Shown: piece by piece, positions 46,501 through 49,500 of the stretch
Layout: each line of letters begins with the position of its first letter
Position numbering within the stretch: position 1 is the first letter of the stretch
Position numbers: made by a program
Assembly (NCBI RefSeq): GCF_056712565.1
Contig: NZ_CM160072.1
Direction: 5' to 3' (one strand)
Length of the DNA stretch: 64,000 nucleotides

Positions 46501-49500
46501 TGGTACCACCGACCTCGAAACCATGAACCTGAACTTAAGCGGTGCATATCGCTTAAATAATGCATGGAGCTTTGGTCTTGGTTTCAACGCCGTCTACGCT
46601 CGCGCGAAAATTGAACGTTTCGCAGGCGATCTGGGGCAACTGGTGGCTGGTCAGATTAGGCAATCTCCTGCTTGGCTGACTCCTCAGGGGCAAGCATTAG
46701 CAGCTACCGCCAACGGCATCGACAGTAATACCAAAATCGCTCACCTGAACGGTAACCAGTGGGGCTTTGGCTGGAACGCCGGTATCCTGTATGAACTGGA
46801 TAAAAACAACCGCTACGCATTGACCTACCGCTCTGAAGTGAAAATTGACTTCAAGGGTAACTACAGCAGCGATCTTAACCCGGCTTTTAATAACTACGGT
46901 TTGCCAATTCCTACCGCGACAGGTGGCGCAACGCAGTCAGGTTATCTGACGCTGAACCTGCCTGAAATGTGGGAAGTGTCGGGTTATAACCGTGTTGCTC
47001 CGCAGTGGGCAATTCACTATAGCCTGGCTTACACCAGCTGGAGTCAGTTCCAGCAGCTGAAAGCGACCTCAACGAGTGGCGACACGCTGTTCCAGAAACA
47101 TGAAGGCTTTAAAGATGCTTACCGCATCGCGTTGGGTACCACTTATTACTACGATGATAACTGGACCTTCCGTACCGGTATCGCCTTTGATGACAGCCCA
47201 GTTCCGGCACAGAATCGTTCTATCTCCATTCCGGACCAGGACCGTTTCTGGCTGAGTGCAGGTACGACTTACGCATTTAATAAAGACGCTTCAGTCGACG
47301 TTGGTGTTTCTTATATGCACGGTCAGAGCGTGAAAATTAACGAAGGCCCATATCAGTTCGAGTCTGAAGGTAAAGCCTGGCTGTTCGGTACTAACTTTAA
47401 CTACGCGTTCTGATAACGCGTTAGCTTAATAAGAAAAAAGGTGAGTTTTGCGACTCACCTTTTTTGTTTCTTATTCAGAATCGATATCTTTTAAATCATC
47501 CTGAATCGCTTGCGCGTTCGGATTTTCCTGCGGTTTGAGTTCACCGCCATTAGCGATGAAATCATGACGCTGGAAGTACGCTTCACGCACCATAATATAA
47601 GGATCGGAGGACTGACGCAGCAGACCGTCGGAATCCAACAACTGCGCACGAGTTTCTATCCCTTCAAGCGTCCATTTACCCACAGACATCGGCCAGGTCA
47701 GCCAGGAAAGAACCGGGTAAAGACTATCCGCCATATCACCACCGTCATCACGCAGCGTGAAGCTACCGTAGAACGGTAATTGAACGTACGGCCCATAACC
47801 CACACCATAATGACCAAGCGTACTACCGAAGCGGTGAGGTTCAGTCCGTTGCAGTTTCGGGTTCGCCATCCCTGCAACATCAATAAAGCCGCCCATTCCC
47901 AAAATGGTATTCAGGAAAAAGCGGGTAAAGTGGACCATCCCCTGATAAGGGTCGCCCTGCAAGAAGTAGTTAACCATCACCGCAGGTTCTTCAAGGTTGC
48001 CGGTAAAGTTGCTCAAACCGTTACGCGCAGGTTGCGGAACATAATCACGCCAGGCGACAGCGACCGGTCGAACAATATACGGGTCTAATACATTGAAGTT
48101 GAAGTTGTACATAGTGCGGTTAAACCCTTCTAACGGGTCAGAACGCCCTTGCTGATCTGTACCGGAACTCGCACACCCCACCAGAAGCGTAGTTCCCAGA
48201 GCAAGCGCCGACAGGCGAAGCTTCATAAATGTCTCCCTGTTTTTTTATGGCTTATGCAGTTTGCCATCCATGACGGAACGATACCGTATCCGCCTGTTTA
48301 GGTGTGGGCGATTGTAACAGCACGTAAACTGATGTCCAGACGCCCTGATTTGCTGATTTGATCATAGCCTGGTAATCGCCGCCCTGTAGGCTACTTGATT
48401 CAATAGCAACAGAAAAAGGCAAACGCGGCCTTTTCTACATTTTCAGAGTAACTCCCGCCAGTTGCGAGCAAAAAAGCCGCTACGCTTTAGCTATACGTGC
48501 TAATTCAAGAGAAGAGACCATGGACAACGACAAAATTGATCAACACAGCGACGAAATTGAAGTTGAGAGCGAAGAAAAAGAGCGCGGTAAAAAAATAGAA
48601 ATAGATGAAGACCGACTCCCCTCCCGGGCGATGGCAATTCATGAGCATATCCGCCAGGATGGTGAAAAAGAGCTGGAACGCGACGCAATGGCGCTACTGT
48701 GGTCAGCCATTGCGGCGGGCCTGTCGATGGGCGCTTCGCTACTGGCAAAAGGGATATTTCATGTCGAACTGGAAGGCGTGCCGGGCAGTTTCTTGCTGGA
48801 GAATCTCGGTTATACCTTTGGTTTTATTATCGTCATAATGGCCCGCCAGCAATTATTTACCGAAAACACCGTAACTGCGGTACTACCCGTCATGCAAAAA
48901 CCGACAATGAGCAACGTCGGCTTACTTATGCGGTTATGGGGCATCGTGCTGCTGGGTAATATTCTCGGGACAGGTATTGCTGCGTGGGCATTTGAATATA
49001 TGCCTATCTTCAATGAAGAAACTCGCGATGCATTTGTCAAAATCGGCATGGATGTGATGAAGAACACCCCCAGCGAGATGTTTGCCAACGCGATCATTTC
49101 CGGCTGGCTGATCGCCACTATGGTATGGATGTTTCCTGCAGCGGGTGCGGCAAAGATTGTGGTGATTATATTGATGACCTGGCTTATTGCCCTGGGTGAC
49201 ACCACCCACATCGTTGTCGGTTCTGTTGAAATCCTCTATCTGGTGTTTAACGGCACGCTGCACTGGAGCGATTTCATCTGGCCCTTTGCACTACCTACTT
49301 TAGCGGGGAACATCTGCGGCGGCACCTTTATCTTTGCGTTAATGAGTCATGCACAGATTCGTAACGACATGAGCAACAAGCGCAAAGCAGAAGCACGTCA
49401 AAAAGCAGAACGTGCGGAAAACATTAAGAAAAATGATAAAAACCCGGCATAAATGGCGAGGGTTTAAGCAGTCGAGCGGCTGTGTACTTACCCCGTAGTC

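What the first reader, a model, noticed from the sequence alone, without database searches (positions are those of the whole stretch)
47414..47470. fadL and mlaA are directly adjacent, separated only by a shared terminator
From memory, K-12 has an extra ORF (yfdF) between fadL and mlaA. Here a single hairpin terminator lies between the two convergent genes, suggesting a strain-specific indel at this junction.
Basis: inference. Interest (0 to 1): 0.15.

Follow-up and report, generated by a model that had tools for sequence, protein, structure and literature searches.

The report
Ancestral fadL–mlaA junction lacking yfdF
In this E. coli strain fadL and mlaA sit tail to tail with one shared terminator hairpin between them, which is the original arrangement; K-12 and most other E. 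coli later gained a 1.5-kb insert carrying yfdF (icaT) there, a difference already published.

Summary
fadL (+, stop at 47413) and mlaA (−, stop at 47471-47473) converge on a 57-bp spacer (47414-47470). Its only notable feature is a strong hairpin at 47434-47465, A6-GGTGAGTT-TTGC-GACTCACC-T6.

The window is 100% identical to E. coli ATCC 11775. Direct adjacency occurs in 1125 of 5426 complete E. coli genomes, and 4299 carry the yfdF segment. All 36 readable outgroup and relative loci (E. albertii, E. whittamii, other Escherichia, Salmonella, Citrobacter, Enterobacter, Leclercia, Lelliottia) show direct adjacency with the same hairpin and no yfdF. The window therefore keeps the ancestral state.

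K-12-type genomes carry one old, AT-rich (36% GC), roughly 1.55-kb insertion. Its junctions are identical in K-12, O157:H7 and strain E600003. It sits between the fadL stop and the hairpin, which stayed with mlaA.

This has been published: yfdF = icaT, absent from phylogroup B2 and inserted near fadL after B2 branched off (PMC9241512). The finding is ordinary and of low interest. The more interesting thing seen in passing is a sharp swap of the FadL barrel allele that ends 36 bp before the fadL stop codon.

The parts
46073..47413 (+). fadL, long-chain fatty-acid outer-membrane channel (the longest ORF starts at 46067; the RefSeq start is 46073)
   Evidence: ORF list. RefSeq annotation of the 100%-identical ATCC 11775 record. 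98.7% amino-acid identity to K-12 FadL.
47414..47470 (.). 57-bp convergent intergenic spacer between the fadL and mlaA stop codons; the empty (ancestral) site of the yfdF/icaT insertion
   Evidence: The equivalent spacer is 44-67 bp in 36 other Enterobacteriaceae loci and 1605 bp in K-12.
47423..47433 (.). AGCTTAATAAG, the 11 nt that K-12-type genomes replace or interrupt with the ~1555-bp yfdF segment (L001:3657-5211). The TTAATAAG motif is shared with E. albertii, E. whittamii and other Escherichia loci.
   Evidence: Junction comparison.
47434..47465 (.). Hairpin A6-GGTGAGTT-TTGC-GACTCACC-T6. It is read here as a bidirectional intrinsic terminator serving fadL on the + strand and mlaA on the - strand.
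   Evidence: Terminator scan. Folding z about -5 on both strands. Conserved across six genera, with 3 stem pairs showing compensatory changes and no broken pair in the G+C core. Retained next to mlaA in K-12.
47471..48226 (-). mlaA (vacJ), outer-membrane lipoprotein of the Mla phospholipid transport system
   Evidence: ORF list. RefSeq annotation.

Best explanation
The window shows the ancestral enterobacterial arrangement. fadL and mlaA are convergent neighbours whose transcripts both end at one shared, symmetric stem-loop. The hairpin has an A-tract on one side and a T-tract on the other, so each strand's RNA gets a hairpin followed by a U-run. K-12 and about 79% of sequenced E. coli differ because a single old horizontal insertion of about 1.55 kb of AT-rich DNA landed between the fadL stop codon and this hairpin. 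That DNA carries yfdF (= icaT) with its own promoter region. The window's strain is identical to ATCC 11775, which belongs to phylogroup B2 by my own knowledge, not tested here. It descends from a lineage that never received the insertion. Shown here: adjacency, hairpin, its conservation, the direction of the indel and the single insertion site. Inferred: that the hairpin terminates transcription in both directions in vivo, and how the insertion occurred.
For: Gene layout and spacer. Hairpin and its stability. K-12 has yfdF in a 1605-bp spacer, and the hairpin is kept on the mlaA side. 1125 of 5426 E. coli genomes have the direct junction and 4299 have the yfdF segment. All 36 loci from other Escherichia species, Salmonella, Citrobacter, Enterobacter, Leclercia and Lelliottia whose downstream DNA could be read have fadL and mlaA 44-67 bp apart, with the same GGTGAG...CTCACC hairpin and no yfdF hit. 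The window keeps the TTAATAAG spacer motif seen in E. albertii and E. whittamii, which K-12 has disrupted. The inserted segment is 35-36% GC against about 50% in the flanks. Its junctions are identical in K-12, O157:H7 and E600003. Three stem pairs show compensatory changes. Published account: icaT = yfdF, absent from all B2 strains examined and absent from E. marmotae and E. fergusonii, judged to have been inserted near fadL after B2 branched (PMC9241512).
Against: No transcript-end data are available, so termination at the hairpin on either strand is inferred. The terminator scan reported only the + strand site. That is because it counted the A/T tracts as stem, which leaves a poorer tail on the - strand. 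I did not cross-tabulate phylogroup against junction state for all genomes, so the B2 assignment rests on the paper, on ST131 and on my own knowledge of ATCC 11775. The main GTDB E. coli representative and E. fergusonii were not among the loci returned.
Confidence: 0.93

Rival explanations
1. The window's lineage once had yfdF and lost it through a clean secondary deletion.
For: Secondary deletions do occur at this locus. Strain N61 has lost the 3' half of fadL and everything up to the mlaA stop. Strain NMBU-W12E19 has yfdF largely replaced by IS421/IS5.
Against: Those secondary events leave scars: a truncated fadL, IS elements, or a 228-bp remnant. The window instead has the exact outgroup-type spacer, including the TTAATAAG motif that K-12-type junctions lack. 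All 36 outgroup and relative loci lack yfdF. The paper reaches the same conclusion.
Confidence: 0.04
2. The hairpin is not a terminator. It could be another conserved element, such as a small RNA, a protein-binding palindrome or a REP-like repeat, or a chance palindrome.
For: No experimental termination data were available. Rfam gave only sub-threshold hits over the hairpin.
Against: The hairpin lies 20 and 5 nt from two convergent stop codons, has a G+C-rich stem, and is flanked by A6 and T6. This architecture is kept in six genera, with compensatory stem changes and a free loop sequence, which is the pattern expected of an intrinsic terminator. No Rfam family reaches its gathering score. Folding z about -5 argues against chance.
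Confidence: 0.03

Closest known systems
icaT/yfdF presence-absence polymorphism at the fadL locus of E. coli and Shigella (Silué and Campbell-Valois, mSphere 2022, PMC9241512)
   Same: Same locus and same two states. The window is the icaT-negative state that the paper reports for phylogroup B2, with an intact fadL locus. K-12, O157:H7 and strains the paper assigns to phylogroup D carry the insert.
   Different: Nothing material. This work adds exact breakpoints (window 47423-47433 against L001:3657-5211), counts over 5426 complete genomes, and outgroup spacers from six genera that show the direction of change and the retained terminator.
Bidirectional intrinsic (Rho-independent) terminators between convergent genes in E. 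coli (general knowledge, e.g. the full-length RNA profiling literature)
   Same: A G+C-rich stem-loop flanked by an A-tract and a T-tract, placed between two convergent stop codons, giving a hairpin plus U-run on both transcripts.
   Different: Termination at this particular hairpin was not measured here.

Membership tests
Intrinsic bidirectional terminator | Stable G+C-rich stem-loop | tested here: met
   The stem has 14 pairs including the A-U extension and 4 G-C pairs. Energy is -26.3 and -23.6 kcal/mol on the two strands, z about -5.
Intrinsic bidirectional terminator | A U-run immediately 3' of the stem on both transcripts | tested here: met
   The sequence shows T6 at 47460-47465 on the + strand. 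A6 at 47434-47439 gives U6 on the - strand RNA. The scan tool listed only the + strand because it paired the tracts into the stem.
Intrinsic bidirectional terminator | Located just downstream of the stop codons of convergent genes | tested here: met
   The hairpin (A/T tracts included, 47434-47465) starts 20 nt after the fadL stop and ends 5 nt before the mlaA stop.
Intrinsic bidirectional terminator | Structure conserved, with compensatory changes among relatives | tested here: met
   16 representative spacers were aligned. 3 of 12 pairs show changes on both sides that keep the pair, the core pairs are never broken, and the loop varies freely.
Intrinsic bidirectional terminator | Transcripts actually end there in vivo | not testable with these tools
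   No transcriptome or 3'-end data were available.
yfdF/icaT-carrying fadL-mlaA locus (K-12 type) | A yfdF/icaT coding sequence between fadL and mlaA | tested here: not met
   The window spacer is 57 bp with no ORF. The window is the empty-site allele, shared with 1125 of 5426 genomes.
IS or transposon insertion (as the origin of the K-12 yfdF segment) | Terminal inverted repeats, a target-site duplication and a transposase domain | tested here: not met
   No terminal inverted repeats or convincing flanking direct repeat were found. Only GGATAA-like 6-mers near both ends and chance-level 10-mers appear. YfdF matches no Pfam family at E<=1. The paper reports only low similarity to an IS256-family transposase.

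The most novel reading that the evidence does not exclude
The 3' end of fadL together with the conserved terminator may act as a recurrent recombination boundary. Two independent large polymorphisms abut it. One is the yfdF/icaT insertion at 47423-47433. The other is a sharp replacement of the FadL barrel-coding region (46302-47377, about 70% DNA identity inside, 100% outside) between otherwise identical B2 backgrounds. The two FadL allele classes are shared across species boundaries. This could be an undescribed, long-lived surface-receptor polymorphism driven by phages or colicins.
Probability: 0.15. Interest if true: 0.35.

Novelty: already known. Interest (0 to 1): 0.08.

Why it matters
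It matters little. The junction marks this window as coming from a yfdF/icaT-negative E. coli lineage, which the literature equates with phylogroup B2. It also gives a clean example of an ancestral shared terminator that stayed with one gene (mlaA) when foreign DNA was inserted beside it. The exact breakpoints and the outgroup survey firm up the published view that icaT was gained after B2 diverged. They do not change any current understanding.

Tried and rejected
1. I looked for signs of how the K-12 segment was inserted, namely terminal inverted repeats and target-site duplications. I found only short matches at chance level. One of them, TGAGTTTTGC at L001:3738 and 5220, is not conserved in E600003.

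2. I ran Pfam on YfdF and got no family.

3. I searched for YfdF in phages and found none. In the plasmid collection there were 5 hits, and at least four (1.4-4.9 Mb records) look like chromosomes or chromosome-sized replicons filed as plasmids. There is therefore no evidence for a mobile carrier.

4. I ran Rfam over 45200-49800. Only tRNA-Arg reaches threshold, and the hits over the hairpin fall far below their gathering scores.

5. I searched the literature for a description of the FadL allele dimorphism. Nothing relevant turned up in the papers inspected.

6. I considered a secondary deletion in the window's lineage and rejected it on the outgroup evidence.

Full report
**Observation.** The ORF list and the sequence show fadL on the + strand. 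The longest ORF runs 46067-47413, the RefSeq start is 46073, and the TGA stop is at 47411-47413. mlaA lies on the − strand at 47471-48226, with its stop TAA read from 47473 to 47471.

It reads TAACGCGTT-AGCTTAATAAG-AAAAAAGGTGAGTTTTGCGACTCACCTTTTTT-GTTTC.

The terminator scan finds one site, 47434-47465, with 14 pairs and a 4-nt loop. The 76-nt region folds at −26.3 kcal/mol on the + strand and −23.6 on the − strand. The z-scores are −5.0 and −5.3, and none of 200 shuffles folds as well.

**Identity of the window.** A 657-bp query across the junction is 100% identical to E. coli DSM 30083 = ATCC 11775. In that record the annotated gene order is sixA-fadJ-fadI-yfcZ-fadL-mlaA-yfdC-tRNA-Arg-intS. 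By my own knowledge this type strain belongs to phylogroup B2; I did not test that here.

**Comparison with K-12.** MG1655 has fadL (b2344), yfdF (b2345, 352 aa), mlaA (b2346), yfdC, argW and CPS-53. The K-12 spacer is 1605 bp. Pairwise alignment places the difference as follows:

- Both genomes share TGATAACGCGTT after fadL.
- Both share AAAAAAGGTGAGTTTTGCGACTCACCTTTTTT before mlaA.
- Between these, the window has 11 nt (AGCTTAATAAG, 47423-47433) where K-12 has about 1555 bp (L001:3657-5211).

The hairpin therefore stayed with mlaA. In K-12, fadL is followed instead by a different perfect 13-bp hairpin that came with the insert (I8). The inserted segment is 29-40% GC in sliding windows, against about 50% in the flanks, and the yfdF-containing spacers are 35-36% GC overall.

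**Frequency in E. coli.** Of 5426 complete genomes, 1125 carry the junction as one contiguous match, meaning direct adjacency. 4299 carry the yfdF segment, and 4270 of those hold at least 80% of it. The two counts add up to almost the whole collection.

ST131 (O25b:H4) has the direct junction. The empty state is thus a common lineage-level allele and is not specific to one strain.

**Direction of the change.** A degenerate pattern for the FadL C-terminus recovered 37 loci from species representatives. In all 36 with readable downstream DNA, mlaA follows fadL directly, with a spacer of 44-67 bp. None has a tblastn hit to YfdF. The loci are:

- E. albertii, E. whittamii, two unnamed Escherichia species and two divergent "E. 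coli"
- Salmonella enterica subsp. arizonae and subsp. diarizonae
- many Citrobacter and Enterobacter
- Leclercia and Lelliottia

All of them carry the same A-tract/GGTGAG…CTCACC/T-tract hairpin. The Escherichia loci also share the TTAATAAG motif that the window has and that K-12 has disrupted.

Direct adjacency is therefore ancestral, and the window has lost nothing. The junctions of the insert are identical in K-12, O157:H7 and strain E600003, whose inserts differ by up to about 9%. This points to a single insertion event followed by divergence.

**Mechanism of the insertion.** I could not recover how the insertion happened. I found no terminal inverted repeats, no convincing target duplication and no Pfam domain in YfdF. 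There is no phage copy, and the few plasmid-collection hits are mostly chromosome-sized records.

**The hairpin.** Sixteen representative spacers from six genera were aligned. The consensus structure has 12 pairs, and three pairs near the top of the stem change on both sides while staying paired (A-U to C-G, G-C to A-U, C-G to U-A). The G+C core is never broken, and the loop varies freely in sequence and length.

The hairpin lies between two convergent stop codons and has A6 and T6 flanks. Either transcript therefore ends in a hairpin followed by a U-run. This is the anatomy of a bidirectional intrinsic terminator. Termination itself is inferred and was not measured. No Rfam family other than tRNA-Arg (49528-49599) reaches threshold in 45200-49800.

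**What is already known.** PMC9241512 (mSphere 2022) renamed yfdF as icaT. It is a MxiE/IpgC-activated substrate of the Shigella type III secretion apparatus. The paper reports the following:

- icaT is present in all examined strains of phylogroups A, B1 and E, and in the strains the paper assigns to D.
- It is absent from all six B2 strains examined, and seems absent from E. marmotae and E. fergusonii.
- Its GC content is low.

A second paper (PMC9769918) covers MxiE- and H-NS-dependent expression of yfdF. The finding is therefore a correct re-observation of a published polymorphism. This analysis adds only the base-level breakpoints, the genome counts and a wider outgroup sample.

**Other events at the locus in other genomes.**

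- Strain N61 has a real secondary deletion, from the middle of fadL to the mlaA stop.
- NMBU-W12E19 has IS421 and IS5 in place of most of the insert.
- Other strains have IS5 or IS1 inserted within or next to the yfdF segment.
- The O157:H7 and E600003 alleles of yfdF carry an internal block of 140-185 bp that K-12 lacks. This matches the internal addition the paper describes in its phylogroup D and E strains.

**Seen in passing: FadL allele classes.** The window and the B2 strain 4/1-1 are 100% identical on both sides of fadL. Between window 46302 and 47377 they are only about 30-88% identical per 50-nt block. At the protein level the two alleles are 80% identical, and the differences are concentrated in blocks that I take to be the extracellular loops.

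- The window's allele (type 1) groups with K-12, O157:H7, E. albertii, E. whittamii, Salmonella and C. amalonaticus at 93-99% identity.
- The other allele (type 2) is 99% identical among 4/1-1, strain E69 and two unnamed Escherichia species, and its closest relative here is Leclercia at 85%.
- Across E. coli, 919 genomes are at least 95% identical to type 2, 295 are intermediate (mosaic) and 4211 are type 1.
- Mosaic fadL alleles occur together with yfdF in other strains. The two polymorphisms are therefore separable.

Window-versus-K-12 divergence is the same in fadL (96.3%) as in mlaA (96.3%). Type 1 therefore looks vertically inherited in this strain. FadL is a known phage receptor, annotated as the T2 receptor, so selection on surface loops is a plausible driver. 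I did not establish whether the dimorphism has already been described.

**Verdict.** It is already known and of low interest.

Noticed in passing
window 46302-47377 (inside fadL); compare L003:1972-3312, L047: There is a sharp allele replacement of the FadL barrel region. The window and B2 strain 4/1-1 are 100% identical in the flanks but about 70% identical inside, and 80% identical at the protein level, with differences in loop-like blocks. The two allele classes cross species boundaries. Type 1 occurs in K-12, E. albertii, Salmonella and C. amalonaticus. Type 2 occurs in ST131, strain E69 and unnamed Escherichia species, and is nearest to Leclercia. In E. coli, 919 genomes are type 2, 295 are mosaic and 4211 are type 1.
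   Followed up: partly
window 47466-47470: The spacer is 4 nt shorter than in other yfdF-less genomes (57 against 61 bp). The window has TTTTTT-GTTT-C where 4/1-1 has TTTTTT-GTTT-GTTT-C and K-12 has TTTTTT-ATTT-GTTT-C. One [A/G]TTT unit has been lost next to the terminator T-tract.
   Followed up: no
window 47405-47419: A small 5-bp hairpin, GCGTT-CTGAT-AACGC, spans the fadL stop codon. The same sequence is present in K-12. It is probably incidental.
   Followed up: no
window 49528-49599 and 49728-50921; L002:8415-12657: tRNA-Arg (argW) is followed by an IntS-type integrase and then by genes annotated as an acyltransferase and a phage tailspike. This prophage at argW differs in content from K-12's CPS-53. 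In ST131 and N61, dsdC follows argW directly, so the site is empty there.
   Followed up: no
L044:3390-4761 (strain N61); L043:4001-6779 (NMBU-W12E19); L045:4306-6190: Secondary events occur at the same junction in other strains. N61 has a deletion from mid-fadL to the mlaA stop. NMBU-W12E19 has IS421 and IS5 replacing most of the yfdF segment, leaving a 228-bp remnant. WP8-S18-CRE-02 has a frameshifted yfdF plus an IS1 insertion.
   Followed up: partly
L041:~2230-2415 and L042 equivalent, against L001:~4420: The yfdF alleles of O157:H7 and E600003 carry an internal block of 140-185 bp that K-12 lacks. The block partly repeats the preceding sequence (GATATTGACTCCAATGATACAGAC...CAAGAACCAATA...), so it looks like an internal duplication or its loss. 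The O157:H7 allele is also truncated at its 3' end.
   Followed up: no
plasmids collection hits H86-H89: Records of 1.4-4.9 Mb are filed as plasmids in PLSDB and carry yfdF. They look like chromosomes or chromosome fragments, so plasmid hits for chromosomal genes in that collection need care.
   Followed up: no
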